NCBI GenBank assembly: GCA_964436015.1
Contig: CAYTAR010000002.1
Span: forward strand, 73,521 to 137,520
Direction: 5' to 3'
Origin: an uncultured Candidatus Saccharibacteria bacterium
GTDB taxonomy: Bacteria; Patescibacteriota; Minisyncoccia; Phycocordibacterales; GCA-2401445
DNA length: 64,000 bases
Positions 529 through 51,523 of the stretch are shown piece after piece (the first letter of the stretch is position 1; the number at the start of each line of letters is the position of its first letter). Both the position numbers and the translations under genes were made by a program. The notes under the pieces were generated by a model that worked only from the letters and a program-made list of their open reading frames with translations, made no database searches and had not been told where the DNA came from.

Positions 529-1374
529 ATGAGAGTACTGATAATGAGTGTATCTGTTGTGGTGCTGGCGAGTGTTCTTGCAACCGTGGTATTGCGTGCA
601 AGCGATACTCTGTCGACTGACCCCTCCTTCTTCCTGAGTCGTGTATTTTCTCGCGCAATACCTTCTACTCCATGTGGAGAAGACATGACACTTATTAGCT
701 CACCTTTCGGAGCTTTTTGTATGGACATATTTGAAGCAAGTCCCGGGGAAGACTGTTTACAAACCAAAGTGCGAAATGAACCCGATTCTCAAGTAAATAT
801 TTCTCAGAGTAATTGTTTTCCAGAAAGCGTTAAGGGAGGAGAACCATGGGTGTTTGTAACAAGGGATAGCGCAATTGAATTATGTGCTCGTGTTGGAAAG
901 CATCTCCCCTCATCTCGCGAGTGGTACTACGCATCCCTTGGAACAGAAGACATCCTTCATGAACCAGTATCTTCTGGGTGTAATTTGTATACGAACTGGG
1001 GAGACGGTATCGGACTCACGGGGAGTGGAGAGAAGTGCGTCTCTTCTTTTGGGGTACACGATATGGCAGGAAATGTGTGGGAGTGGGTAGCTGATGATGT
1101 GGTGGCAAATTCCGTTGATGGAATACAACTTCCACAAAGTGGATACGTTGACGGAGTTACGAGCGCTGGTTTTCCTTTTATATCCAGTACCTCACCAAAT
1201 ACATTATATGGAAATGATTATTTCTGGGCTTCAAAGTTACCCCTTACCGCGGTGATGCGTGGAGGATTTTATGGAAGTGGGGAGGATGGGGGTCGTTTTA
1301 GTTTGTATACGGAAGCACAATCAACATTTGTGGGTAGCGCAGTAGGTTTCAGGTGTGCACGTGTAGTAGAATAA
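529..1374 (+). CDS. FGE-sulfatase (SUMF1/DUF323) domain protein with N-terminal signal/TM segment
   Basis: The N-terminus is hydrophobic (MRVLIMSVSVVVLASVLATVVL). It has the same GNVWEWV...MRGGF...GFRC C-terminal domain as the upstream paralog. Confidence 0.6.
   Translation: MRVLIMSVSVVVLASVLATVVLRASDTLSTDPSFFLSRVFSRAIPSTPCGEDMTLISSPFGAFCMDIFEASPGEDCLQTKVRNEPDSQVNISQSNCFPESVKGGEPWVFVTRDSAIELCARVGKHLPSSREWYYASLGTEDILHEPVSSGCNLYTNWGDGIGLTGSGEKCVSSFGVHDMAGNVWEWVADDVVANSVDGIQLPQSGYVDGVTSAGFPFISSTSPNTLYGNDYFWASKLPLTAVMRGGFYGSGEDGGRFSLYTEAQSTFVGSAVGFRCARVVE
904..1293 (+). repeat. Copy 2 of the 390-bp direct repeat
   Basis: Identical to 49-438. Followed by a divergent patch at 1294-1344. Confidence 0.8.
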
Positions 1375-39768: not shown

Positions 39769-40191
39769 ATGCAATTACGGGTTAAAAAATTAGATACTGA
39801 TGCACGCCTGCCTCTGTACGCGCACAAAGGAGATGCGGGTATGGATTTGTTTGCACTTGAAGAAACGGTGCTGCTACCACATACGCAAGTATCTATACGC
39901 ACAGGTATTGCGTTTGAAATACCAGAGGGGTATGTCGGGCTCATTTGGGATAAAAGCGGGCTTTCACACAAGCATGGACTGAAAACATTTGGTGGGGTAG
40001 TGGATGCCGGATACCGTGGAGAGATATCAGTAGGTATTATGAATCTTTCGGATACACCATATGTTTTTGAGAAGGGGCATAAAATAGCCCAGATGTTGAT
40101 TCAGCCGGTTGTATCGGCTAGTATTGTTGAGTCAGATACACTCTCTGATTCATCACGAGGAGAAGGAGGGTTTGGTAGTACGGGAAAATGA
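39769..40191 (+). CDS. dut: dUTP diphosphatase
   Basis: dUTPase motifs AGMDL, RSGL-like (KSGLSH), GVVDAGYRGEI and the C-terminal GGFGSTG. Confidence 0.85.
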   Translation: MQLRVKKLDTDARLPLYAHKGDAGMDLFALEETVLLPHTQVSIRTGIAFEIPEGYVGLIWDKSGLSHKHGLKTFGGVVDAGYRGEISVGIMNLSDTPYVFEKGHKIAQMLIQPVVSASIVESDTLSDSSRGEGGFGSTGK

Positions 40192-41894
40192 AGAAAGAGC
40201 TTATACAACATATTACAGAAGTATTAGTGTCGCTCGGAGTGGGTGATGTTGGTGCTGTCGTACTTGAACGACCCCAAGACATAATGCATGGGGACTGGGC
40301 TACTAATGTTGCGCTCGTCTATGCAAAACAAGTTAAAAAAATTCCAGCAGTATTCGCGCGCGAAATTGTAGAAGCGCTCACTGAAAGAAAAATCTCAAAT
40401 GTAAAAAGCATTTCAGTTGCAGGGCCGGGGTTTATCAATATCATGTTAGAACCTGCGTACTATAATGCGCGTTTGAGTAGTTTGCTTGCCGAGGGGGATT
40501 CATTTGGAAACACTGATGTATACCAAGGTGAGAAGGTAATGGTTGAGTATACTGATCCAAATCCATTCAAAGTTTTTCATATAGGGCACCTGATGAATAA
40601 TGCAATTGGCGAGTCGCTCGCATGCGTAACGGAAGCAGGTGGTGCGGAGGTGGTACGGGCAAACTACCAAGGGGATGTAGGACTGCATGTAGCAAAAGCA
40701 ATATGGGGCATGCGACAAAACAAACTCGCGTTTCCACATGATACAGACGATTTACATACAAAGATGCGTTTTGTGAGTGATGCGTACGTATTGGGTGCTT
40801 CACGGTACGAAGAAGATGAACTGGCAAAAAAAGAAATTGATGTCATTAACCGAGAGGTGTACTCACGAGAAAATGATGATACCAATGTATATTACGATAA
40901 AGGGCGTTCGTGGAGTTTGGAGCATTTTGAGGAAGTATACGTGCTCCTTGGAACTACTTTTGACCGCTACTATTTTGAAAGTGAAGTCGCAGAAAAAGGT
41001 GTATCTATCGTTCGTGCAAATATGGGGAGTGTATTTGAAGAAAGTAACGGTGCGATTATTTACCGTGGTGAAAAACATGGACTCCATACGAGGGTATTTA
41101 TTAATTCCCAAGGCCTTCCCACGTATGATGCGAAAGATATTGGTCTCACCTGGACTAAGGAAGAGGGGTATGATCTCACGCGGTCAATTGTAGTGACTGC
41201 GGATGAGCAGAGAGAGTACTACAAGGTACTTATGGCAGCAATCGGTGACATTGATCCAAAAGTCGCAAAAAAAATGGTTCACATCACACACGGTATGATG
41301 CAGGGACCAGACGGAAGCAAGCTCTCTTCCCGAAAAGGAACGGCACTCACCGGTGTGTCGCTTATTGAAGAGGTAAAAGCACTCGTATATGAGAAGCTCA
41401 AAGAGCGGGAGATGAGTGAGGAAGAAAAAAAACGGGTTGCAGAATACGTAGCAGTGGGTGCGGTAAAGTATTCAATTCTCCGCGCTAAAACAAGCAGTGA
41501 CATTGCATTTGATTTTGACCGTTCTATTTCTTTTGAGGGAGATTCTGGTCCTTACTTACAGTACACAGCTGTGCGTGCTCGCTCACTGCTTCAAAAGGCG
41601 CACTCTCTATACCCAGGAGTGTACGTGCCAGAGTATAGGGAGAGTGAGAGGACTCTCCACCTTTTACTTGATAGGTATGAGGAAGTAGTAACGCGCTCAC
41701 AGAGAGAGTTTCAGCCACATTACATTGCCACTTTCGCGATAGAGCTCGCGAGTGCTTTTAATGCTTTTTATTCAAATAATAAGATACTACATACTCCCGA
41801 GGCATCTTCTCGCCTCGCGCTTGTTTTTGTTACGGAGAGAACACTCACGCATGCGCTCAAACTTCTTGGTATACGAGTTCCCGACAAGATGTAG
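40188..41894 (+). CDS. argS: Arginyl-tRNA synthetase
   Basis: HIGH motif (FHIGHLMN). The C-terminal anticodon-binding DALS-type region has GPYLQYTAVRARS. Length and architecture are typical of ArgRS. Confidence 0.8.
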   Translation: MKKELIQHITEVLVSLGVGDVGAVVLERPQDIMHGDWATNVALVYAKQVKKIPAVFAREIVEALTERKISNVKSISVAGPGFINIMLEPAYYNARLSSLLAEGDSFGNTDVYQGEKVMVEYTDPNPFKVFHIGHLMNNAIGESLACVTEAGGAEVVRANYQGDVGLHVAKAIWGMRQNKLAFPHDTDDLHTKMRFVSDAYVLGASRYEEDELAKKEIDVINREVYSRENDDTNVYYDKGRSWSLEHFEEVYVLLGTTFDRYYFESEVAEKGVSIVRANMGSVFEESNGAIIYRGEKHGLHTRVFINSQGLPTYDAKDIGLTWTKEEGYDLTRSIVVTADEQREYYKVLMAAIGDIDPKVAKKMVHITHGMMQGPDGSKLSSRKGTALTGVSLIEEVKALVYEKLKEREMSEEEKKRVAEYVAVGAVKYSILRAKTSSDIAFDFDRSISFEGDSGPYLQYTAVRARSLLQKAHSLYPGVYVPEYRESERTLHLLLDRYEEVVTRSQREFQPHYIATFAIELASAFNAFYSNNKILHTPEASSRLALVFVTERTLTHALKLLGIRVPDKM

Positions 41895-42892: not shown

Positions 42893-43618
42893 GTGACAAC
42901 GATGAAAAATCCATCGATTGCATCAGACAGTGAAGTCAGTGATGGTCAAATCGAAACCTGCGTGACTTTGGTCACCGATGCTACGCGCAAAGGGACAGGC
43001 GCCGCACTCCGCGAACTTGTCAAGAACGGTGTTCTCAACAAACAGAACATTGAACGTGTGCGAGCGCGCGGTAACGAGGTGGTCGCCGAGATCACGAGGA
43101 TCGTGAAGGAAAAGTTTGCAGAAATCGCCGAAAATATCGCTGGTATCGTCAAGCTCATCTCCGGCGCGGAAACCCTTGAACTCGACGAAACGGATGGGAA
43201 TGCAACCATTGCGAAAGCGAAGGATACCTTTCCTGGCTGGATTGATTCCGACTTCAAGGAATACGGTTGCGATGTAAAATCGGAACCTACCAAAAAGGTA
43301 CAGGTTTCCGTCCACGAGATGATCAAGGACGGCACCTTCGCCCAGATCTTTAACGGCATGAGTGACGACTTGAACAAACTCGTTATGACTCAACCGCAGA
43401 TCATTCAGTTCGTGCAGAAACACCGCAAGTGGCTCCGCACGGAAGGGTGTGGGAACTTCTTCCTCTTCAAGGTTGGAAATGAGCTCTTCGTTGCGTACGT
43501 GCGCTTCCGCGACGACGGGCGGCTCGAGGTCCGCGTGCGCCGCTTCTCGTGCGGCCGCGTCTGGCGCGCCGGGCGCCGTCTTCGCGTCGTGGTCCCGCAA
43601 CTGGCACTTGCAAATTAG
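42893..43618 (+). CDS. DGR target (variable) protein; VR occupies the last ~40 codons
   Basis: GTG at 42893, or more likely ATG at 42902 with an aagaaaggg RBS. No signal peptide. The C-terminal segment (VAYVRFRDDGRLEVRVRRFSCGRVWRAGRRLRVVVPQL) corresponds codon for codon to the TR-encoded VANVNFNDDRQLKVNVNRFSNDNVWNAENRHRIVVPKL. Confidence 0.6.
   Translation: MTTMKNPSIASDSEVSDGQIETCVTLVTDATRKGTGAALRELVKNGVLNKQNIERVRARGNEVVAEITRIVKEKFAEIAENIAGIVKLISGAETLELDETDGNATIAKAKDTFPGWIDSDFKEYGCDVKSEPTKKVQVSVHEMIKDGTFAQIFNGMSDDLNKLVMTQPQIIQFVQKHRKWLRTEGCGNFFLFKVGNELFVAYVRFRDDGRLEVRVRRFSCGRVWRAGRRLRVVVPQLALAN
43484..43603 (+). repeat. DGR variable repeat (VR)
   Basis: Aligned base by base with 43920-44039. 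93 of 120 positions are identical. All 27 mismatches fall where the TR has A: A->G x15, A->C x9, A->T x3. The segment is locally GC-rich. Confidence 0.85.
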
Positions 43619-43919
43619 CCTTGAGCCTTTGTCTCTCAGTCCCTCTGACCCTTGTCAAAATTTATTTTGGCAAATCAGGGGGATTTTTGTATACTGAAAC
43701 GGCACGCATGAATGTACGGTGGCTATGGCTCCCGTGCCACGCTTGTGAAAAAATACATTCGAGAATTCTGCCGGACATGTTTTGCGGAAGAGTGGGTGTA
43801 TTTTTATCTAAACAAAAAATAATCAGTTGGTGTAGCGAACTGGAGGACTTCAATGTCCCGAATACTATTCAACCTGTCCTGATTGGGCTGGTGGTGTGCC
43901 GGATGGTTCGCTGCACATT

Positions 43920-44039
43920 ATCTTCGTTGCGAACGTGAACTTCAACGACGACAGGCAGCTCAAGGTCAACGTGAACCGCTTCTCGAACGACAACGTCTGG
44001 AACGCCGAGAACCGTCATCGCATCGTAGTCCCGAAACTG
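43920..44039 (+). repeat. DGR template repeat (TR)
   Basis: A-rich, with AAC codons. Of its 33 adenines, 27 are substituted in the VR. It is non-coding; the track ORFs over it are spurious. Confidence 0.85.
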
Positions 44040-44054
44040 TCATTTCTCTCATCA

Positions 44055-44423
44055 TTATTTGGTGAGAGTTTTGTTGAGTGTTGATTTGGTAGAGGGACTT
44101 TGGAGGCCTTTGCGCCATCCGCCAAGCATTCGTCCTATTTCTTCTAACTTTTCGGAAAGCTCGGTATATTTATCGGTAGGAATTAGCTTGTTTTCCCATG
44201 CTAGTTGATAAAAGAATTTAAGAGTATCTACCTTCGTTATGGTTCGGCCAAGCATAACTATCTTGGCTTCAGGTGGCAGATAGATGCAGGCAAAACTGAA
44301 TTCCAAAGTATCTAAGAATAGGTTCTCGATCTTTTGCCCAATACCGAGACGTTCGACTCTCGGGAAGTTTCTATGAATAGCTAACCAGGATTGGTATACC
44401 TCCTTTTCCTTTAGAATTACCAC
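44055..44423 (-). CDS. Avd-like accessory variability determinant (four-helix-bundle protein)
   Basis: 122 aa. The pattern (FPRVERLGIGQKIENLFLDTLEFSFA...KVDTLKFFYQLAWENKLIPTDKYTELSEKLEEIGRMLGGW) resembles the four-helix-bundle/S23-intervening-sequence family that contains DGR Avd. It is encoded on the opposite strand to the TR and RT. Confidence 0.5.
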   Translation of the reverse strand: MVILKEKEVYQSWLAIHRNFPRVERLGIGQKIENLFLDTLEFSFACIYLPPEAKIVMLGRTITKVDTLKFFYQLAWENKLIPTDKYTELSEKLEEIGRMLGGWRKGLQSPSTKSTLNKTLTK

Positions 44424-44463
44424 TGGAGAACTGCGGGGGGGGGTATGTCATAGTCATTTTTTT

Positions 44464-45456
44464 ATGAAAAATAAGGGAGTTACGTACAACCATATCATAT
44501 CTCTCAAAAATATCCACGAAGCATGGTGTGAATTTGTGTCTGGTAAAAAATATAAAAAAGATGTAGCAGAATTTCTGCTCAAACTATCAGAGAACACCTA
44601 TAAACTCCATATTGATTTGAAAAATAAAATATATGTCCACGGACCGTATGAAGCATTTGCAGTTAATGATCCGAAACCTCGCAGTATTCATAAAGCGAGT
44701 GTACGAGACCGCTTGCTTCATCATGCTCTCTATCGACAGCTCTATCCATACTTTGATCAAAAATTTATTTATGATTCCTATTCCTGTCGTGATTTCAAGG
44801 GAACTCATCGGGCACTGGACCGCTTCATGCAATTTGGCCGCAAGGTTTCAAAGAGTAACAAGTGCACTTGTTGGGTGTTGAAGTGTGATGTGCGAAAGTT
44901 CTTTGCTTCAGTGGATCATGTGGTACTCATGACGATACTTAAAAAGCATATTTTTGACTCCAATATTATAAGCCTTGTTAGTAGGGTAGTGGAGAGTTTT
45001 AAGAGTACTGGTCCAGGAAAGGGTTTACCCCTCGGCAACCTTACATCACAGCTCCTAGTTAATGTCTACATGAACGAATTTGACCAGTTTATGAAGCATG
45101 AAATAAAAACTAAATACTACATAAGGTATGCTGATGATTTTATTATTATGAGCAGGGATAGGGATTTTTTAAAGAAATTGATCCCTCAGATATCTAAGTT
45201 TTTGAATGAGAGATTAAAGCTTTCCTTGCATCCTGATAAGGTTTTTATAAAGTCGTTATCATCGGGAGTTGATTTTTTAGGTTGGGTCCATTTTCCAGAT
45301 CATAGGGTATTGAGGACGAGTACCAAAAAGAGAATGTTTAGGAATTTGATAGCAAAAGAAGCTAAAAAAGAAACTGTACAGTCGTATCTCGGGTTACTGA
45401 AGCATGGAAATACAAGGAAGTTGGAAAATTATATTAGAAATAGTTTTTTACCATAA
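44464..45456 (+). CDS. DGR reverse transcriptase
   Basis: RT motifs: VLKCDVRKFFASVDH (motif A region), GLPLGNLTSQLLVNVYM, and YIRYADDFIIM (YADD catalytic motif). At 330 aa it is typical of DGR RTs. Confidence 0.85.
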   Translation: MKNKGVTYNHIISLKNIHEAWCEFVSGKKYKKDVAEFLLKLSENTYKLHIDLKNKIYVHGPYEAFAVNDPKPRSIHKASVRDRLLHHALYRQLYPYFDQKFIYDSYSCRDFKGTHRALDRFMQFGRKVSKSNKCTCWVLKCDVRKFFASVDHVVLMTILKKHIFDSNIISLVSRVVESFKSTGPGKGLPLGNLTSQLLVNVYMNEFDQFMKHEIKTKYYIRYADDFIIMSRDRDFLKKLIPQISKFLNERLKLSLHPDKVFIKSLSSGVDFLGWVHFPDHRVLRTSTKKRMFRNLIAKEAKKETVQSYLGLLKHGNTRKLENYIRNSFLP

Positions 45457-45471
45457 AAATGTTAAAATGGA

Positions 45472-48400
45472 TTGATGAATGAAGGAGAGAAACCACCGAA
45501 GAGTAAAGTTGCAGAAACCGAAGAGAAGATACTAGATTTCTGGCAAAAGAACGATATTTTTAAGAAAACGCTTGAAAAATCCTCACCCAAGGGTGATTTT
45601 GTGTTCTATGACGGTCCTCCATTTGCAACTGGACTTCCTCACTACGGACACATACTTCCTGCGACCATGAAGGATGTCATTCCTCGCTTTAAAACAATGC
45701 AGGGGTATCGGGTGCGAAGAAGGTGGGGGTGGGACTGTCACGGGTTGCCGGTGGAAAACTTGATTGAAAAGGAGTTGGGACTCAAAGACAAGCAGGATAT
45801 TTTGCGATTCGGTATTGGGAACTTTAATGATGAAGCCAAAAAGAGCGTGCTTCGCTACGCAGACGATTGGAGGCGTGCGGTCCCAAAGTGGGGACGGTGG
45901 GTTGATATGGTTGATGACTATCGCACCATGGATCTTTCATACACGGAATCTATCTGGTGGATGTTCAAAACGCTCCATGATAAAAATTTAATTTCTGAGG
46001 GGTATAAGTCAATGCATTTGTGCCCTCATTGCGAAACTACACTTTCAAACTTTGAGGTCAATCAGGGGTATAAAGATATTACAGATATTTCCGTGTATGT
46101 CGCTTTTGAGCTTGAGAACGAGCCGAATACTTTTTTGCTGGCATGGACGACAACACCATGGACGCTCCCAGGGAATGTTGCTCTTGCGGTTAATCCAGCC
46201 GTTGCATACTCTACAGTTGAGAAAGATGGGAAGCGTTATATCCTCGCGGAAGATCTTGTTGCAAAGAGGTTTACGCTTGAGGGTGAGACTGCAGTCGTTG
46301 GTAACAAGATAAAAGGCTCTGAGCTTATTGGCAAATCATACAAACCCGTATTTCCATACTACGCAGAAGATACGACGCTAGAAGGAAGAGAGAAGGGGTG
46401 GAAGGTATATGGTGCGGATTTTGTAACTACCGAAGATGGAACCGGAATTGTTCACATTGCTCCAGCATTTGGAGATGACGACATGACGCTCGGGAAAAAG
46501 GAAGGTCTGCCATTTGTTCAGCACGTTACTACTGGTGGAATTTTCAAGCCTGAGGTACGTGATTTTGCGGGGGTGTACGTAAAACCAAAAGATGACCACC
46601 AATCGGGTGATGTTGCGATAATAAAATATCTTGCTCACAAGGGAGTGCTTTTTGCGAAAGAAAAAATTATTCACTCATACCCTCACTGTTGGCGTTGTGA
46701 TACTCCACTTTTGAACTATGCATCAAGCTCGTGGTTTATTACGGTAACTGCGATTAAGGATAAACTCGTTGAGGAAAATAAAAAGGTACAGTGGGTACCA
46801 AAAGAGATGGGTGAGGGTCGTTTTGGGAAGTGGCTTGAAGGGGCGCGCGACTGGGCTATCTCACGCTCTCGTTTTTGGGGAGCTCCGCTTCCAGTGTGGA
46901 GGGATACGGACGGGAAAGAAGTCTTTATTCCCGCTTCGGTTAAAGAACTCAAGGAGCGAATCGGGTTTAGAAATACGTACGTGGTTATGCGTCACGGTGA
47001 AGCGGAGAGTAATGCACAGAATATTTTAAGTGGGAAAAAGGATAACCCGCACCATATAACAGAGAAAGGGAAAAAGGAGGTTGAACAAGCAATTCTTGAG
47101 TTACAAGGAAGAGCTATTGATATGGTTTTTGTATCGCCTTTTGTGCGCACACAAGAAACGGCACATATGGTACAAAAAGCATTAGGCTTAAACGATAGTC
47201 AGATAGTTACTGAGGATAGAATTGCTGAGATAGATACAGGTGATTTTAATAACAAGCCGATTGAGGAGTATCGGGCGTACTTTGAGAGCACCACTGAAAA
47301 GTTTTCAAAACGTGCCCCTAATGGCGAGAGTTTGCGTGATGTACGTACGCGCGTGGGTGAATTTTTGTACGAGATTGACAAGCGATATGAAGGTAAAACT
47401 ATTCTCATTATCACGCATGAGTATCCAATCTGGCAGTTGTACTCGGTTGCGGAAGGGTGGGATGAACGTGGATCAATCAAAGCAAAAGACGGAAGAGATG
47501 ATTTCGTTAAAACGGGAAGCGTGAGCGAGATCACCTTCGCGCCACTTCCGGTGAATGAACAGTTTGTGACTGACTTGCATCGTCCATACATTGACGAAGT
47601 GGTGCTGACAACAAAGGATGGCGCTCCGATGAAGCGAGTACCTGAAGTATTTGATTGTTGGGTAGAGTCAGGTTCCATGCCGTTTGCATCTCATGGGTAC
47701 ATAGGTAGCCCGCTCCCGCATTTTGATCCACAAAACAATGTTGGTTTTCCTGCTGATTTCATTGCAGAAGGACAGGACCAGACACGTGGGTGGTTTTACT
47801 CACTCATCGTGCTTGGCGTGGCGCTCTTCGGAGAGTCGCCGTATAAGAATGTGGTGGTGAATGGAATTGTACTTGGTGAAGATGGACAAAAAATGAGTAA
47901 ACGTCTCAAAAATTATCCTGACCCGATGCACGTTGTTGAAAAATATGGAATGGATGCATTGCGTTTATATTTACTCGGTTCACCTTTGGTAAAAGCTGAA
48001 GATGTTTGCTTTTCGGAGAAGAGTGTTGATGAAATAATGAAAAAGAATATCGGGCGACTTGATAACGTGGTCTCATTTTTTGAGATGTTTAAGGAAGGGG
48101 AAGAAGTACGTGGGGAGAGTGAACACGTCTTGGACCGGTGGATGGTAAGTAAAAGAAACCAGTTAATTATTTCTGTATCTGCATCGCTTAATGCGTACCA
48201 GTTTGATCGCGCGGTACGGGCTGTAGCGGAGTTTATTGAGGATCTTTCAACCTGGTATGTCAGACGTTCGCGTGACCGTTTTAAAGGGGAGGACTTGAGT
48301 GATGTGGCATGTGCACGTAAGACGCTCAGAGAAACACTTTCTATTCTTGCGCGAGTAAGTGCTCCACTGATTCCATTTACCGCTGAGCATGTGTACAGGG

Positions 48401-48954
48401 CCGTGAGAGAAGAAAGCGACCCCGAGAGTGTACATCTCTCAGAGTGGCCAGTAGCAGGAGTGGTGGACGAAACTCTTCTTTCATACATGAATACTGCGCG
48501 AGAGTTGGTGTCATTTGGGTTTGATGCGCGCACAAAAGCAAAAATAAAAGTTCGCCAACCCCTCGCATTGCTCACCATAAAAGAGAAACTTCCAGCAGAA
48601 TTTCTTGATCAAATTGCCGATGAAGTAAATGTGAAAGAGGTTATTGTTGGAGATACCAAAGAAGATTCTGTATTGCTTGATACGACACTTACCCCCGTAC
48701 TTGTTACCGAAGGGTATCAGCGTGACGTTATTCGTCATGTGCAGGAAAAGAGAAAAGAAGCGGGGCTACAGACGAGTGATAAAATAGTACTCATGATTGA
48801 GGGGGATAGTAATACGCACGCTTTTATTTCAGCAATTGAGCACGAGCTTGGGCGCGTGGCGCAGGTTGCGCGTTTTGAATACAAGGGGCCAGGTGAAGAT
48901 AGTTCTCTCGTACTGGGTAGTTTCTCTTTCTCTTTTTCGGTGAAGAAATTGTAA
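45472..48954 (+). CDS. ileS: Isoleucyl-tRNA synthetase (type 2) with inserted histidine-phosphatase (PGAM-like) domain
   Basis: PPFATGLPHYGHIL (HIGH region), KMSKRL (KMSKS), and WAISRSRFWGAPLPVW are all IleRS-typical. An in-frame ~200-aa insert at about 46972-47568 carries RHGE...N, SPFVRTQETA and ITHE motifs. Confidence 0.85.
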   Translation: MMNEGEKPPKSKVAETEEKILDFWQKNDIFKKTLEKSSPKGDFVFYDGPPFATGLPHYGHILPATMKDVIPRFKTMQGYRVRRRWGWDCHGLPVENLIEKELGLKDKQDILRFGIGNFNDEAKKSVLRYADDWRRAVPKWGRWVDMVDDYRTMDLSYTESIWWMFKTLHDKNLISEGYKSMHLCPHCETTLSNFEVNQGYKDITDISVYVAFELENEPNTFLLAWTTTPWTLPGNVALAVNPAVAYSTVEKDGKRYILAEDLVAKRFTLEGETAVVGNKIKGSELIGKSYKPVFPYYAEDTTLEGREKGWKVYGADFVTTEDGTGIVHIAPAFGDDDMTLGKKEGLPFVQHVTTGGIFKPEVRDFAGVYVKPKDDHQSGDVAIIKYLAHKGVLFAKEKIIHSYPHCWRCDTPLLNYASSSWFITVTAIKDKLVEENKKVQWVPKEMGEGRFGKWLEGARDWAISRSRFWGAPLPVWRDTDGKEVFIPASVKELKERIGFRNTYVVMRHGEAESNAQNILSGKKDNPHHITEKGKKEVEQAILELQGRAIDMVFVSPFVRTQETAHMVQKALGLNDSQIVTEDRIAEIDTGDFNNKPIEEYRAYFESTTEKFSKRAPNGESLRDVRTRVGEFLYEIDKRYEGKTILIITHEYPIWQLYSVAEGWDERGSIKAKDGRDDFVKTGSVSEITFAPLPVNEQFVTDLHRPYIDEVVLTTKDGAPMKRVPEVFDCWVESGSMPFASHGYIGSPLPHFDPQNNVGFPADFIAEGQDQTRGWFYSLIVLGVALFGESPYKNVVVNGIVLGEDGQKMSKRLKNYPDPMHVVEKYGMDALRLYLLGSPLVKAEDVCFSEKSVDEIMKKNIGRLDNVVSFFEMFKEGEEVRGESEHVLDRWMVSKRNQLIISVSASLNAYQFDRAVRAVAEFIEDLSTWYVRRSRDRFKGEDLSDVACARKTLRETLSILARVSAPLIPFTAEHVYRAVREESDPESVHLSEWPVAGVVDETLLSYMNTARELVSFGFDARTKAKIKVRQPLALLTIKEKLPAEFLDQIADEVNVKEVIVGDTKEDSVLLDTTLTPVLVTEGYQRDVIRHVQEKRKEAGLQTSDKIVLMIEGDSNTHAFISAIEHELGRVAQVARFEYKGPGEDSSLVLGSFSFSFSVKKL

Positions 48955-48960
48955 CGGTAT

Positions 48961-49548
48961 ATGTACCACGTACATACGACTGATGCGTATATTTTAGAGC
49001 GAAATCCGCACGGAGAAGCGAATGCGCTCATAACGCTTTTTACACGCGAGTTCGGACGCATACAAGCGGTGGCTCAGGGGGTAAGAAAGGGCGTTTCAAA
49101 ACTTAATCCTTCACTGCAAGAATACTCACGCGTTCGTGTTTCGCTCGTTCGTGGACGTGAGTGGTGGAGGGTGGTTTCAGTGGGTGGGTGTACTTCACTT
49201 TTTGCATGCACAAAGAATGATGAGGAGCGCTTACGTGTGGTAGTGAACAGTAGTAAGTTATTGGGACGCTTAGTGCAAGGAGAAGAGGGAAATGAAGCTT
49301 TGTTTGATGCGTTCACCGAGGTTATGCATTTGCTTGCAGATAGGAGCAACACGCGTGAAGTTATTTCCGCGCTTGAAATAATACTGGTGCTCCGTGTGCT
49401 GTATCATTTGGGATATGTATCAAAGACTGATGATATTGTTTCAATTATTGAAGAAGGGGTGAGTGATGCCATAATTTCAAAGGTTCTCACCGTGCGCTCG
49501 CAGTTGATTTCGTCAATTAATACGTCACTCAAGGTAACACAGTTATAA
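48961..49548 (+). CDS. recO: RecO-like recombination mediator (short form)
   Basis: N-terminal OB-fold pattern (AYILERNPHGEANALITLFTREFGRIQAVAQGVRKGVSKL...LQEYSRVRV) and a later helical region (LEIILVLRVLYHLGY) resemble RecO. No C-terminal zinc-finger region is apparent. Confidence 0.5.
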   Translation: MYHVHTTDAYILERNPHGEANALITLFTREFGRIQAVAQGVRKGVSKLNPSLQEYSRVRVSLVRGREWWRVVSVGGCTSLFACTKNDEERLRVVVNSSKLLGRLVQGEEGNEALFDAFTEVMHLLADRSNTREVISALEIILVLRVLYHLGYVSKTDDIVSIIEEGVSDAIISKVLTVRSQLISSINTSLKVTQL

Positions 49549-49573
49549 ATAATTTTGTGGTATACTGCACACA

Positions 49574-51523
49574 ATGGAGAAGGAACGGCCAGAGGATATT
49601 ATAGAGCGAACCAAACGGAAACTGTACTCGGTAGACGGTGCTTCAATTCAACACGAAAAGACAGTAGAGCTACACAAGCAATCTTTTGAGGTGCCGGAAG
49701 GGTGGCAGTCAGATGAAAATGTTTCTGTTGGTGGTAAAGATGTTGACTATAGTATGGCGCGAAGAAAATTACATGATCACTCGTTGCTAAAAAAACTGTT
49801 GGTGGTTGCAGGGGTGTTTTTTGCTGTTGCTGTCGGCATTTTTTCATACTTATATTTTGGCGGATTAAATACTATTTCATCTCAGAATGTTGATATTACA
49901 ATTATTGCGCCCGTTACCGTGGCGGGAGGGGAACCTCTTCCTATTCAGTTGGTGGTCAGTAACCGAAATTCTATTCCACTTGAATCTGCCCTACTTACTC
50001 TTGAATTTCCAGAAGGAACACGCTCTGGAGAGTCTTCTGGAGAAGCGTTGGTTCGATATACGTATGATTTAGGGAAAGTGGAGGCTGGGGGAGATGTGAA
50101 TCATACTGTGAATGCAGTTCTTTTTGGTGAAGAAAATAGTATCAAACGGATTGTGGTGTCGGTTGAGTATCGTGTGCCCGACTCAAGCGCGCGATTGTAC
50201 AAAGAAAAGTTTTATGAGCCGACAATTAGTTCGTCTCCAGTAATCATGTCTATAACGCCGATTAAGGAGACAAATTCTGGTAAGGAATTTACCATGACAG
50301 TGACGGTTGCCTCAAACTCTGGTTCAACAATTGAAGATGTGTTACTGAAGGCTGAGTATCCGTTTGGGTACGAGTTTGTGAGCGCAACTCCTGAACCAAC
50401 CTTTGATGATAGTGTGTGGAGAATTGGTGACTTACGTCCAGAGCAGAAGAAGGAAATTGTCATACGCGGAGTGCTTACAGGTGAAGACGGTTCAAACCGC
50501 GCGTTCAATTTTTCCGTTGGTAATCAAGATACTCAAAATGAAAAACGAATTGGAATTACGCTTCTTTCTCAACAAGAGACGGTGCGTATCGCACGTCCGT
50601 TTATTGGCACGACTCTCGCATTGAATGGAAAGAGTGATGGCACGGCGATTATAAATGCCGGCGGTACGGTTCGAGGGGATATTTCGTATGTAAATAATCT
50701 TCCTACGCAAGTTACTAACGTTGAAATTGAGGTTAAGCTCGGAGGAACTATTCTTGATAGGCGTTCAGTATCTGCAGGAAACGGTTTCTATCGCTCCATT
50801 GACGATACGATTGTGTGGGAGAAGAGCAGAAACGCTTCACTTGCGTCACTTAATCCTGGGGAGCGAGGAACGGTGAGTTTCAGTGTGTCTCCTTTGGCTA
50901 TAACACCGGGAACATTGTCACTGTACGGAAATCCGGAAATGAATTTCGTAGTGAGTGTCCGAGGTACACGAGTATCTGAATCAAATGTACCTGAATCTAT
51001 TGTTTCAAGTACGGAGGGAAAGGTGGTTCTTGCTTCAAACTTGTCAGTACAGCCGAGAGTGGTATATTCAGATGGTCCTTTTGTGAATACTGGACCAGTT
51101 CCACCACGAGCTGAGCTTGAAACAACGTATACGGTCTACTGGACAATAACCAATACGACAAATGACGTGTCCGGTGCTCGTGTGTCCGCCTCTTTGCCTT
51201 TCTATGCGCGATGGGTTGGTCAAGTGAGTCCTCCGAACGAGCGTGTTACGTATAATCAAGTTGGAGGACAAATTGTGTGGGATGTTGGAAGTATTCCAGC
51301 AGGAAGTGGGTTATTGTCTACTCCACGTGAGGTGGCGTTCCAGGTTGCAATTTTGCCTAGTTTAAGTCAATTGGGGACCGAACCAAATATTATTGGAGCA
51401 ACGACACTCACCGGGTTTGATGTGTTTACCGAAACCTCGCTTCAAGCAACGGCTCGTGAGGTTACGACGCGTCTTACAAGCGATCCACTGTATGGTTTTA
51501 GTAAGGGAGAAGTTGTTCAGTAA
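49574..51523 (+). CDS. Hypothetical single-pass membrane protein with large extracytoplasmic domain
   Basis: An ~80-aa cytoplasmic N-terminus, a TM segment (LLVVAGVFFAVAVGIFSYLYF), then a ~550-aa Ser/Thr/Val-rich region predicted to be beta-rich. Confidence 0.4.
   Translation: MEKERPEDIIERTKRKLYSVDGASIQHEKTVELHKQSFEVPEGWQSDENVSVGGKDVDYSMARRKLHDHSLLKKLLVVAGVFFAVAVGIFSYLYFGGLNTISSQNVDITIIAPVTVAGGEPLPIQLVVSNRNSIPLESALLTLEFPEGTRSGESSGEALVRYTYDLGKVEAGGDVNHTVNAVLFGEENSIKRIVVSVEYRVPDSSARLYKEKFYEPTISSSPVIMSITPIKETNSGKEFTMTVTVASNSGSTIEDVLLKAEYPFGYEFVSATPEPTFDDSVWRIGDLRPEQKKEIVIRGVLTGEDGSNRAFNFSVGNQDTQNEKRIGITLLSQQETVRIARPFIGTTLALNGKSDGTAIINAGGTVRGDISYVNNLPTQVTNVEIEVKLGGTILDRRSVSAGNGFYRSIDDTIVWEKSRNASLASLNPGERGTVSFSVSPLAITPGTLSLYGNPEMNFVVSVRGTRVSESNVPESIVSSTEGKVVLASNLSVQPRVVYSDGPFVNTGPVPPRAELETTYTVYWTITNTTNDVSGARVSASLPFYARWVGQVSPPNERVTYNQVGGQIVWDVGSIPAGSGLLSTPREVAFQVAILPSLSQLGTEPNIIGATTLTGFDVFTETSLQATAREVTTRLTSDPLYGFSKGEVVQ

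What the first reader, a model, noticed from the sequence alone, without database searches (positions are those of the whole stretch)
46972..47568. Histidine-phosphatase (PGAM-like) domain inserted in-frame into isoleucyl-tRNA synthetase at the zinc-knuckle position
IleRS normally goes from ...WAISRxRYWGxPLPxW-C..C-(short linker, ELK..) straight to ..DLHRPYxDxVxL-C.C-..RVPxVxDxWxxSGSMP. Here the sequence reads WAISRSRFWGAPLPVWRDTDGKEVFIPASVKELKERIGFR, then about 200 extra residues, then [41 protein letters not shown].

The insert has the branch-1 histidine phosphatase signature VMRHGEAESN, the SPFVRTQETA motif (compare SPLxRAxQTA of SixA/CobC/PhoE) and a downstream ITHE. The four Cys of the usual zinc knuckle are replaced by D/T/K.

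The ORF is continuous at 1160 aa with no frameshift. I am not aware of an aminoacyl-tRNA synthetase carrying a phosphohistidine-phosphatase-type domain. It could be regulatory, a moonlighting nucleotide or ribazole phosphatase, or a hint of an unusual editing or proofreading activity.
Basis: partly seen in the sequence, partly recalled or inferred. Interest (0 to 1): 0.65.

Follow-up and report, generated by a model that had tools for sequence, protein, structure and literature searches.

The report
Phosphatase domain nested inside isoleucyl-tRNA synthetase
The enzyme that loads isoleucine onto tRNA in this ultra-small (Patescibacteria/CPR) bacterium carries a complete, apparently active histidine-phosphatase domain spliced into one of its surface loops; hundreds of related species share this, no paper I could find describes it, and it points to an unknown phosphate-removing step tied to tRNA charging.

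Summary
ORF 45472-48954 (+) encodes an uninterrupted 1160-aa type-2 IleRS. Residues 501-699 (nt 46972-47568) are a clean His_Phos_1 domain (Pfam E=2e-32; AF2 pLDDT 96), inserted exactly between yeast IleRS residues 496 and 497. That site is the CP3 subdomain, which holds a Zn knuckle in Thermus IleRS.

It is not a chimera. At least 458 species-representative genomes encode a relative. In all 80 loci inspected, all Patescibacteria, the domain lies at the same point of a ~1120-1290-aa IleRS, mostly between intact CxxC...CxC cysteines.

The catalytic set R507/H508/N514/R559/E586/H649 is invariant. The insert is as conserved as the editing and anticodon-binding domains.

Three further results:
- The closest free-standing ~190-aa relatives are all (5/5) encoded immediately upstream of an insert-free ileS.
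- Other Patescibacteria (Gracilibacteria/Peregrinibacteria-type) carry the same domain family at other IleRS loops.
- Some proteins hold 2-4 copies, and one also has a GNAT domain.

Best reading: an active phosphomonoesterase selected to work beside IleRS. The substrate is unknown; I favour a nucleotide or tRNA-3'-end phosphomonoester. The Cys loss is incidental.

No paper describes this, although annotation pipelines flag the domain pair. I call it a new variant of a known kind, interest about 0.65.

The parts
45472..48954 (+). ileS: 1160-aa type-2 (eukaryote-like) isoleucyl-tRNA synthetase with a nested phosphatase domain. Start is TTG 45472 or ATG 45475; stop codon included.
45640..45651 (+). 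HIGH signature (HYGH, residues 57-60) of the class I catalytic site
   Evidence: sequence
46066..46686 (+). CP1 editing domain (about residues 199-405). It contains WTTTPWTLPGN (225-235) and GTGIVHIAPAFG (323-334), so editing motifs are retained.
   Evidence: match to isolated Thermus editing domain 1wk8, residues 199-405
46885..46971 (+). N-terminal half of CP3 (residues 472-500, PLPVWRDTDGKEVFIPASVKELKERIGFR). The first knuckle CxxC is replaced here by D/T/D/G.
46972..47568 (+). Nested His_Phos_1 (branch-1 histidine phosphatase) domain, residues 501-699
46990..46998 (+). RHG motif (R507, H508 = predicted phospho-acceptor histidine, G509). N514 follows at 47011-47013.
47134..47148 (+). S555-P-F-V-R559: second phosphate-binding arginine
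   Evidence: 68/68 invariant
47227..47229 (+). E586: predicted general acid/base
   Evidence: 68/68
47416..47418 (+). H649: second catalytic histidine (IITHE)
   Evidence: 68/68
47539..47571 (+). Return linker (APLPVNEQFVT). Relatives have a conserved P-x-P-H-N-x-x-Y-E-L here; it is partly degenerate in the window copy.
47572..47691 (+). C-terminal half of CP3 ([38 protein letters not shown]). The second knuckle CxC is replaced by T/K.
47692..47727 (+). Loop (residues 741-752) that hosts a His_Phos_1 domain (P0241, P0208) or a GNAT domain (P0159) in other Patescibacteria. It has no insert here.
47890..47904 (+). KMSKS signature (KMSKR, residues 807-811)
48088..48132 (+). [quoted passage not shown] It hosts a His_Phos_1 domain in Gracilibacteria-type and other relatives and has no insert here.

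Best explanation
What it is. This is the organism's IleRS; it is the only ileS and the only His_Phos_1 copy in the window. A complete, catalytically competent branch-1 histidine phosphatase of the compact ~200-aa PhoE/CobC/PspA type has been nested into the tip of its CP3 zinc-knuckle hairpin. The arrangement is an ancient, selected feature of a large part of Patescibacteria, not an accident of this genome.

How it probably works. The phosphatase would use the standard mechanism. H508 attacks a terminal phosphoryl group held by R507, R559, N514 and H649. E586 protonates the leaving group, and the phospho-histidine is then hydrolysed.

Functional coupling (inferred). The same phosphatase family occurs in three arrangements: as a separate gene abutting ileS, nested in CP3, or nested at other IleRS loops, sometimes in 2-4 copies. 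I infer that selection acts on physical proximity to IleRS. The domain would then act in cis on something bound to or released from IleRS.

Substrate (speculative). My committed guess is a nucleotide-type phosphomonoester. The first candidate is a phosphorylated 3'-terminal A76 of tRNA-Ile, which cannot be charged until the phosphate is removed. That would make the domain a third, repair-type site beside the synthetic and editing sites. The second candidate is the product AMP.

Status of each step. Shown: domain identity, insertion point, conservation, distribution, gene adjacency. Inferred: catalytic activity and functional coupling. Speculative: substrate identity.
For: - Domain identity and fold: (pLDDT 96.3, pTM 0.92); top structural neighbours are PspA 4ij6 (TM 0.79), CobC 6e4b/6nru and PhoE 1h2e, while dPGMs give lower target-normalised TM.
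- Insertion point: between yeast residues 496 and 497. CP3 is Candida IleRS residues 473-534, and Thermus CP3 carries the zinc motif.
- Nesting inside an intact knuckle in most relatives.
all 80 lie in a long IleRS ORF at the same site. One search found about 48 independent metagenomic clusters.
- Purifying selection. Mean pairwise identity is 0.46 in the insert, against 0.52-0.63 in core domains and 0.38 in the C-terminal domain. R559, E586, E619 and H649 are invariant in 68/68. One search shows the same in 23 sequences that were not selected through the motif.
- Rosetta-stone evidence. Five of five free-standing closest relatives sit directly upstream of an insert-free ileS (gaps of 1-10 nt or overlapping), within the same argS-ileS-recO synteny as the window.
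- Independent insertion sites and multiple copies with catalytic residues kept. These occur in other classes (Peregrinibacteria and Gracilibacteria names) and in a different gene context.
Against: - No activity, substrate or structure of the whole protein is available. The only full-length model was unusable (pLDDT 31). The distance and orientation of the phosphatase pocket relative to the aminoacylation site or the tRNA path are therefore unknown.
- The inserted domains are on average acidic (mean net charge -5.4; window copy -8, pI 5.2). That gives no support to broad RNA binding.
- No His_Phos_1 enzyme known to me acts on RNA 3' ends.
- Nearest characterised relatives act on small metabolites (phosphoserine, alpha-ribazole-5'-P, sugar phosphates).
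- No NCBIfam equivalog cut-off is reached, so specificity cannot be read from homology.
- There is no obvious reason why only IleRS among the synthetases would need such an activity.
- Operon adjacency can persist by inertia.
- The phosphatase-domain tree is star-like and carries no support values.
Confidence: 0.6

Rival explanations
1. Metabolic moonlighting. The domain is an ordinary small-molecule phosphatase or mutase (for example phosphoserine phosphatase, a sugar-phosphate or ribazole-type phosphatase, or a minimal dPGM). Its gene happened to lie in the argS-ileS operon and was captured into ileS in genome-reduced lineages. The fusion only guarantees co-expression, and the chemistry has nothing to do with aminoacylation.
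For: - The best sequence and structure neighbours are metabolite phosphatases: PspA 4ij5/4ij6, CobC, PhoE.
- The active-site architecture is generic.
- The domain is acidic rather than RNA-binding-like.
- Reduced genomes do accumulate fusions.
Against: - A gene lying upstream would most easily fuse end-to-end, yet I found no N-terminal fusions. The apparent ones are truncated fragments.
- Instead the domain is nested in internal loops at three or more distinct positions, in different classes and in different gene contexts, sometimes in 2-4 copies. That is hard to explain without selection for placement on IleRS.
- No equivalog cut-off is met for any metabolic family.
Confidence: 0.17
2. Built-in protein phosphatase. 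The domain removes an inhibitory phosphate from IleRS itself, or from a partner of the translation apparatus. It would counter a kinase, analogous to HipA-type toxins that phosphorylate GluRS, TrpRS or LysRS, or it would serve as a regulatory switch.
For: - The requirement for tethering or adjacency and the several positions around the catalytic core would fit a cis-acting protein phosphatase.
- From general knowledge, the superfamily includes protein phosphatases (SixA, PGAM5, Sts).
- There is a weak N-terminal match to TIGR00249 SixA: 43-47 bits, below the 74.5-bit cut-off.
Against: - The structure and sequence resemble small-substrate phosphatases more than SixA.
- No kinase was seen in the neighbourhoods.
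- No PADLOC defence-system match.
- No evidence that IleRS is phosphorylated in any organism was retrieved.
Confidence: 0.1
3. Ligand-sensing or structural module. The domain binds a phosphorylated metabolite and allosterically tunes IleRS, or it simply replaces the stabilising role of the CP3 zinc knuckle, with little or no turnover.
For: - It sits in a subdomain whose zinc site is dispensable in many IleRSs.
- 16 of 68 relatives, including the window, have lost the Cys.
- Two extra copies have RHA instead of RHG (P0241_A and P0255_1), and P0208_1 has Q at positions 619 and 627.
Against: - Every catalytic residue is invariant across 68 CP3-nested copies and nearly all extra copies. That pattern is typical of active enzymes, not pseudoenzymes.
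- Most relatives keep both the zinc knuckle and the insert, so the insert is not a replacement for the zinc site.
- Free-standing versions exist.
Confidence: 0.08
4. Artefact or selfish element. The insert is an assembly chimera, an intein-like mobile insertion, or a decaying passenger.
For: - Mobile DNA is active next door: a DGR in the window, and TnpB plus Cas1 in L082.
- P0159 carries a Y1-transposase-like segment in its editing domain.
Against: - The same junctions occur in 80 of 80 independent genome loci and about 48 metagenomic clusters.
- GC content across the junctions shows no break (0.41-0.49).
- Pfam finds no Hint or intein domain, and there are no intein splice-junction residues.
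- Conservation is comparable to core domains.
Confidence: 0.01

Closest known systems
Type-2 (eukaryote-like, MupA/MupB-related) isoleucyl-tRNA synthetase, e.g. yeast/Candida cytoplasmic IleRS (8WND, 7D5C, 6LDK), Priestia IleRS2 (8C8U), Thermus IleRS (1ILE)
   Same: - Full-length collinear match outside the insert (E about 1e-217 to 1e-195).
- HIGH and KMSKR signatures, CP1 editing motifs, anticodon-binding domain and DUF5915 C-terminal domain are all present.
- The CP3 subdomain is present.
   Different: CP3 is interrupted by a 199-aa enzyme domain. None of the solved IleRS structures has anything there.
Compact branch-1 histidine phosphatases: PspA-type phosphoserine phosphatase (4IJ5/4IJ6), CobC alpha-ribazole-5'-phosphatase (6E4B, 6NRU), PhoE/YhfR (1H2E, 1EBB)
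   Same: - Same fold (TM 0.75-0.80).
- Same catalytic R-H-G...N...R...E...H set.
- Same ~200-aa size, lacking the dPGM-specific extensions.
   Different: - Only 22-29% identity, and below every NCBIfam equivalog cut-off.
- Not free-standing but nested in another enzyme, or encoded abutting ileS.
- Has its own conserved P-x-P-H-N-x-x-Y-E-L return linker.
NCBIfam NF040702 'ileS_w_GNAT' (IleRS containing an N-acetyltransferase domain)
   Same: It is a precedent for an IleRS carrying an extra catalytic domain. One relative found here (P0159) has both His_Phos_1 and GNAT domains.
   Different: - The window protein scores 321 bits against a 1999-bit cut-off, so it is not a member.
- From the profile coordinates matched (query 10-271 to profile 16-291; L083 residues 254-919 to profile 456-1079), the GNAT of that family appears to lie in the CP1 region, not CP3. 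This is an inference from coordinates and was not checked on a member sequence.
Trans-acting or appended aaRS accessory enzymes (general knowledge: YbaK/ProX, AlaX, D-Tyr-tRNA deacylase, CP1 editing domains)
   Same: The logic is similar: a second hydrolytic activity associated with a synthetase, either fused or as a separate protein depending on lineage.
   Different: Those are aminoacyl-ester hydrolases of unrelated folds. Here the chemistry is phosphomonoester hydrolysis through a phospho-histidine intermediate, which has no established role in aminoacylation.

Membership tests
Isoleucyl-tRNA synthetase (TIGR00392 ileS), type 2 | Whole-protein score above the curated equivalog cut-off | tested here: met
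   877.5 bits against a cut-off of 621.4
Isoleucyl-tRNA synthetase (TIGR00392 ileS), type 2 | Class I signatures HIGH and KMSKS | tested here: met
   HYGH at 57-60 and KMSKR at 807-811
Isoleucyl-tRNA synthetase (TIGR00392 ileS), type 2 | CP1 editing domain with a Thr-rich motif and the GTGxVHxAP motif | tested here: met
   WTTTPWTLPGN at 225-235 and GTGIVHIAPAFG at 323-334; match to the isolated editing domain 1wk8
Isoleucyl-tRNA synthetase (TIGR00392 ileS), type 2 | Type-2 C-terminal architecture (Anticodon_1 plus DUF5915, no C-terminal zinc-binding domain) | tested here: met
   Pfam hits at 888-1032 and 1066-1154; best PDB relatives are eukaryotic, IleRS2 and Thermus enzymes
Isoleucyl-tRNA synthetase (TIGR00392 ileS), type 2 | Isoleucine-specific aminoacylation activity | not testable with these tools
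   Needs biochemistry
Histidine phosphatase superfamily, branch 1 (PF00300) | Pfam score above the gathering threshold | tested here: met
   112.7 bits in the whole protein and 117.6 bits for the excised insert, against 21.7
Histidine phosphatase superfamily, branch 1 (PF00300) | Catalytic core: RHG histidine, two Arg, second His, acidic proton donor | tested here: met
   R507, H508, R559, E586 and H649 (plus N514) are present. R559, E586 and H649 are invariant in 68/68 relatives.
Histidine phosphatase superfamily, branch 1 (PF00300) | Alpha/beta fold of the superfamily | tested here: met
   AF2 pLDDT 96.3; Foldseek probability 1.00 and TM 0.75-0.80 to PspA, CobC and PhoE
Histidine phosphatase superfamily, branch 1 (PF00300) | Phosphatase or mutase activity | not testable with these tools
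   Needs an enzyme assay
2,3-BPG-dependent phosphoglycerate mutase (dPGM) | Equivalog score, and dPGM-specific length and extensions | tested here: not met
   Best dPGM model NF038349 scores 80-85 bits against a 225-bit cut-off; TIGR01258 scores 36 against 81.7. The domain is ~200 aa, and target-normalised TM to dPGMs is 0.60-0.67 against 0.71-0.78 for the phosphatases.
Alpha-ribazole phosphatase CobC (TIGR03162) | Equivalog score | tested here: not met
   72-77 bits against a cut-off of 162.9
Phosphohistidine phosphatase SixA (TIGR00249) | Equivalog score over the full length | tested here: not met
   43-47 bits against a cut-off of 74.5, and only the N-terminal 75 residues align
PspA-type phosphoserine phosphatase (NF045917) | Equivalog score | tested here: not met
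   72-77 bits against a cut-off of 350, although PspA is the closest solved structure
IleRS with GNAT domain (NF040702) | Score above cut-off and presence of a GNAT domain | tested here: not met
   321 bits against a cut-off of 1999; no acetyltransferase Pfam hit in the window protein
Intein / Hint-domain insertion | Hint domain and splice-junction residues (N-terminal C/S; C-terminal HN followed by C/S/T) | tested here: not met
   No Hint or intein Pfam hit. The insert begins with N-T-Y. The conserved PHN in relatives is followed by x-x-Y-E-L, not C/S/T.

The most novel reading that the evidence does not exclude
Patescibacteria IleRS has a third catalytic site. The tethered histidine phosphatase would act on the tRNA-Ile acceptor end or on another IleRS-bound phosphorylated species, for example by removing a 3'-(pyro)phosphate that blocks charging. 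That would be a phosphate-dependent quality-control, repair or anti-toxin step in aminoacylation with no counterpart in any characterised synthetase. It would have evolved repeatedly: as a separate operon partner, nested in CP3, and nested at other loops.
Probability: 0.25. Interest if true: 0.85.

Novelty: new variant of a known kind. Interest (0 to 1): 0.65.

Why it matters
Aminoacyl-tRNA synthetases are among the best-studied enzymes. Their known accessory activities are editing hydrolases and RNA- or protein-binding appendages. Here a phosphomonoesterase is kept next to or inside IleRS across a whole bacterial superphylum, has been acquired at several different loops, and keeps its catalytic residues intact. 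That implies an unrecognised phosphate-removing step linked to isoleucine charging, or to IleRS regulation, in organisms with minimal genomes that retain little dispensable sequence.

The case is directly testable. One can express the fused enzyme, the H508A mutant, and the split pair (for example the L083 phosphatase with its IleRS).

It also identifies CP3 and two further loops as permissive sites for domain insertion in class Ia synthetases, which is useful for engineering. Finally, it gives a clean natural example of the same two proteins being joined in several different ways.

Tried and rejected
- Full-length single-sequence AlphaFold2 model: unusable (mean pLDDT 31.5). The tool also returns no coordinates.
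- The search for related loci with the 23-sequence alignment failed because no stretch was conserved enough. A 7-sequence subset worked, but it biases the genome set to copies carrying MRHGEAE[SNQ]. The figure of 458 is therefore a lower bound, and conservation of residues 506-513 in that set is by construction.
- Short PF00300 hits on long contigs (P0039, P0041) looked like split genes or free-standing copies. They are frameshift-fragmented ileS in long-read assemblies.
- Hits of 700-760 aa with an N-terminal phosphatase looked like N-terminal fusions or a split IleRS. They are N-truncated fragments starting in CP2/CP3.
- Intein, assembly chimera and decaying-passenger readings were rejected.
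- dPGM, CobC, SixA and PspA membership: all below curated cut-offs.
- PADLOC: no hit. PHROGs: only an unknown-function family, phrog_12933.
- Rfam on the window: no hits.
- The distance tree of phosphatase domains is star-like and carries no support values. I use it only to say that the free-standing copies group together within the family.
- The net-charge test was meant to detect an RNA-binding character. The result was acidic and does not support one.
- Six literature searches found no paper on an aaRS-histidine phosphatase fusion. The library lacks most subscription journals, so absence is not proof.
Full report
**1. The observation**

The window contains one long ORF, 45472..48954 on the + strand, 1160 codons, with no stop or frameshift. 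The listed start is TTG 45472 and an ATG follows at 45475.

Pfam finds five families:
- tRNA-synt_1, split into two stretches
- His_Phos_1 at residues 504-665 (E = 2.3e-32; 7.4e-34 when the 199 residues encoded by 46972-47568 are scanned alone)
- Anticodon_1 at 888-1032
- DUF5915 at 1066-1154
- tRNA-synt_1g, a weaker match at 50-194 that overlaps the tRNA-synt_1 region

NCBIfam's ileS equivalog scores 877 bits against a cut-off of 621. GC content runs smoothly through both junctions.

**2. Where exactly the insert is**

A phmmer search of PDB sequences aligns residues 15-501 to yeast cytoplasmic IleRS residues 12-496. It aligns residues 699-1060 to yeast 497-884.

The Candida IleRS structure paper defines residues 473-534 as the CP3 subdomain. 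It states that Thermus CP3 contains a zinc-binding motif, whereas Candida and S. aureus CP3 do not (PMC7191050). The "zinc-knuckle position" is thus CP3, not the CP1 editing domain. The CP1 motifs WTTTPWTLPGN and GTGIVHIAPAFG are intact here.

The absence of the four Cys in the window copy is real but incidental. Many homologues with the same insert keep CxxC before it and CxC after it. In a 68-sequence alignment only 16, including the window, have none. The domain is therefore nested inside the knuckle hairpin, and the zinc site was lost later in some lineages, as it was in insert-free eukaryotic IleRS.

**3. It is real and widespread**

- A word-indexed search with residues 451-750 returned about 48 independent clusters carrying both PF00133 and PF00300. 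Where named, most come from Patescibacteria, Paceibacterota or Vogelbacteria.
Of these, 458 were confirmed as relatives.
- The best 80 are all Patescibacteria MAGs: Yonath-, Taylor-, Campbell-, Lloyd-, Nomura-, Wolfe- and Vogelbacteria, Paceibacterota and one Berkelbacteria. They include the complete Campbellbacteria genome CP011215.1.
- In all 80 the match lies in a long IleRS reading frame, about 1120-1290 aa when complete. It always sits between the "...GS..EL......N.Y" strand and "DLHRPYID".

An assembly chimera is excluded.

**4. The domain looks active and is under selection**

- With a 23-sequence alignment the insert folds with pLDDT 96.3 and pTM 0.92.
- Its closest solved structures are compact branch-1 phosphatases: the PspA-type phosphoserine phosphatase 4IJ6/4IJ5 (TM about 0.79), CobC 6E4B/6NRU and PhoE 1H2E/1EBB. 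The larger dPGM mutases match less well when normalised by target length.
- No NCBIfam equivalog (dPGM, CobC, PspA, SixA, GpmB) reaches its cut-off, so homology does not give the specificity.
- In sequences collected without the motif filter, R7, H8, G9, N14, R59, E86, E119, R127 and H149 of the insert are invariant at 28-47% identity to the window copy. Add 500 to get protein numbering.
- In 68 full-length proteins, R559, E586, E619 and H649 are 68/68.
- Mean pairwise identity of the insert is 0.46. The anticodon-binding domain gives 0.52, the editing domain 0.53, the Rossmann halves 0.58-0.63 and the C-terminal domain 0.38.

This is the pattern of a working enzyme, not a passenger or pseudoenzyme.

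**5. The result that changes the picture: gene adjacency**

An exhaustive HMMER search of 1.84 billion representatives with the insert alone gave 905 hits at E <= 1e-10. Fused IleRS proteins and their fragments dominate the top of the list. It also contains genuine free-standing proteins of about 190 aa, at 31-37% identity, that begin MKLNNKYF.LRHG and end right after the last strand.

I looked up the context of five of them. All five lie immediately upstream of ileS.

| Protein | Locus | Arrangement |
|---|---|---|
| P0194 | L083-L085 | argS, phosphatase, 984-aa insert-free ileS, then a 100-aa ORF, recO and a CLIPPER-like gene; phosphatase stop, one base, ileS ATG |
| P0205 | L087/L088 | argS, phosphatase, 962-aa ileS |
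| P0193 | L086 | downstream gene begins with an IleRS N-terminus |
| P0238 | L089 | downstream fragment best matches TIGR00392 ileS |
| P0252 | L090 | downstream fragment best matches TIGR00392 ileS; ArgRS upstream |

The insert-free IleRSs of L083 and L087 pass the ileS cut-off. They have an intact CxC...CxxC CP3 with only about 10-13 residues where the window has 199.

The window has the same synteny: argS 40188-41894, ileS, recO 48961-49548, and a DUF11/CLIPPER-like ORF at 49574-51523. The same phosphatase family is thus either a separate gene abutting ileS or a domain inside IleRS. That is a classic Rosetta-stone signal of functional coupling.

**6. Repeated nesting at other sites**

I mapped further hits onto the window protein with the insert removed. 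His_Phos_1 domains occur at these other positions:
- In the loop right after CP3 (window residues about 741-752): P0241 copy A and P0208 copy 2. P0159 has a GNAT domain there in addition to a CP3 phosphatase.
- At the junction between the stem-contact fold and the anticodon-binding domain (window 873-887): P0241 copy B, P0255 copy 2, P0332, P0267, P0268, P0271 and P0290.
- After DLHRPYID: P0208 copy 1.
- Near residue 426: P0155, which has four copies.

P0241 is a complete 1419-aa protein. Its cluster has six members, all 1419 aa, on contigs up to 1.06 Mb. It lies in a different neighbourhood with purA, DAHP synthase and an SLH protein.

Named relatives of these forms are Peregrinibacteria and Gracilibacteria. 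JGI's pipeline calls one [quoted passage not shown].

Nearly all extra copies keep the catalytic residues. The exceptions are RHA in two copies, a Q/Q pair in P0208 copy 1, an Ala at the N514 position in P0155 copy 3, and a Gly at the E586 position in the truncated P0155 copy 4. I found no simple N-terminal fusion, even though the gene lies upstream; the apparent cases are truncated fragments.

**7. Interpretation**

Shown:
- The domain's identity, insertion point, conservation and distribution.
- Its adjacency to ileS when free-standing.
- Multiple insertion sites.

Inferred:
- The domain is an active phosphomonoesterase using H508 as the phospho-acceptor.
- Selection acts on its proximity to IleRS.

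Speculative: the substrate. Terminal phosphomonoesters near IleRS include the product AMP, the tRNA 5'-phosphate, and a tRNA-Ile 3' end that carries a phosphate and so cannot be charged. A phosphorylated IleRS is another possibility.

I favour a nucleotide or tRNA-end substrate, at roughly 0.25-0.3 for that specific class. My reasons are that CobC- and PhoE-like enzymes accept nucleotide-like substrates, and that a single-stranded CCA end can reach a deep pocket, as it does in the editing site.

The evidence for this is weak. The domains are acidic on average. No RNA-directed His_Phos_1 enzyme is known to me. I could not obtain inter-domain geometry.

Unrelated metabolic moonlighting is disfavoured by the repeated internal nesting, but it is not excluded.

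**8. Novelty**

Six full-text searches found no paper on an aaRS with a histidine-phosphatase domain. The sequences themselves have been public for years, and annotation pipelines see the two domains. Both parts are well-known families. The new element is the combination: its breadth, its alternative genetic arrangements, and the implied function. I therefore rate it a new variant of a known kind, with interest about 0.65. It is surprising to a synthetase specialist and immediately testable, but the mechanism is unresolved.

Noticed in passing
window 42893-45456: A complete diversity-generating retroelement lies between argS and ileS. The target ORF is 42893..43618 (+, 241 aa, no Pfam hit), with the variable repeat at 43485-43609. 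The template repeat is at 43921-44045 (78% identical, and every mismatch is an A in the template against G/C in the variable copy). A bAvd ORF lies at 44055..44423 (-) and the reverse transcriptase at 44464..45456 (+). This accounts for the GC-rich patch at about 43300-43750.
   Followed up: partly
window 40188-41894 and 48961-51523; loci L081-L088: The synteny argS - (variable cargo) - ileS - recO - large DUF11/CLIPPER-like protein is conserved. The argS|ileS gap holds the DGR in the window, the free-standing phosphatase in L083 and L087, and a TnpB (IS605 OrfB)-like gene plus Cas1 in L082.
   Followed up: partly
P0159 (1066 aa, JGI metagenome; truncated): This IleRS carries three extras: a Y1/IS200-like transposase domain in-frame inside the editing-domain region (residues 340-461), a His_Phos_1 domain in CP3 (680-854), and a GNAT acetyltransferase in the next loop (935-1063).
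   Followed up: no
P0155 (1161 aa), P0208 (1087 aa), P0241 (1419 aa), P0255 (979 aa): These IleRS proteins have two to four His_Phos_1 domains at different loops, nearly all with intact catalytic residues. P0241 is complete and its cluster has six members, all 1419 aa, on contigs up to 1.06 Mb.
   Followed up: partly
L081 (ERZ25039480 contig_65275) and L082 (ERZ25039540 contig_54002): The ileS genes are broken into 3-4 called pieces in long-read assemblies, most likely by frameshift errors. This inflates the number of apparent short 'His_Phos_1 + tRNA-synt_1' proteins in the databases.
   Followed up: partly
window 1-64000: No Rfam family reached its gathering score anywhere in the 64 kb, so no tRNA or other known RNA gene was detected at that threshold.
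   Followed up: no
free-standing phosphatases P0194, P0205, P0207, P0234, P0252 compared with the nested domains: The ileS-adjacent free-standing phosphatases are strongly basic (pI 9.2-9.8). The nested domains are on average acidic (pI about 6). A subset of the free-standing ones also has Q for N514 and D for E586.
   Followed up: no
L067 (Berkelbacteria PEZV01000039.1): The CP3-nested phosphatase is about 232 aa rather than about 197 aa, so this lineage has an additional ~35-aa element within or beside the domain.
   Followed up: no
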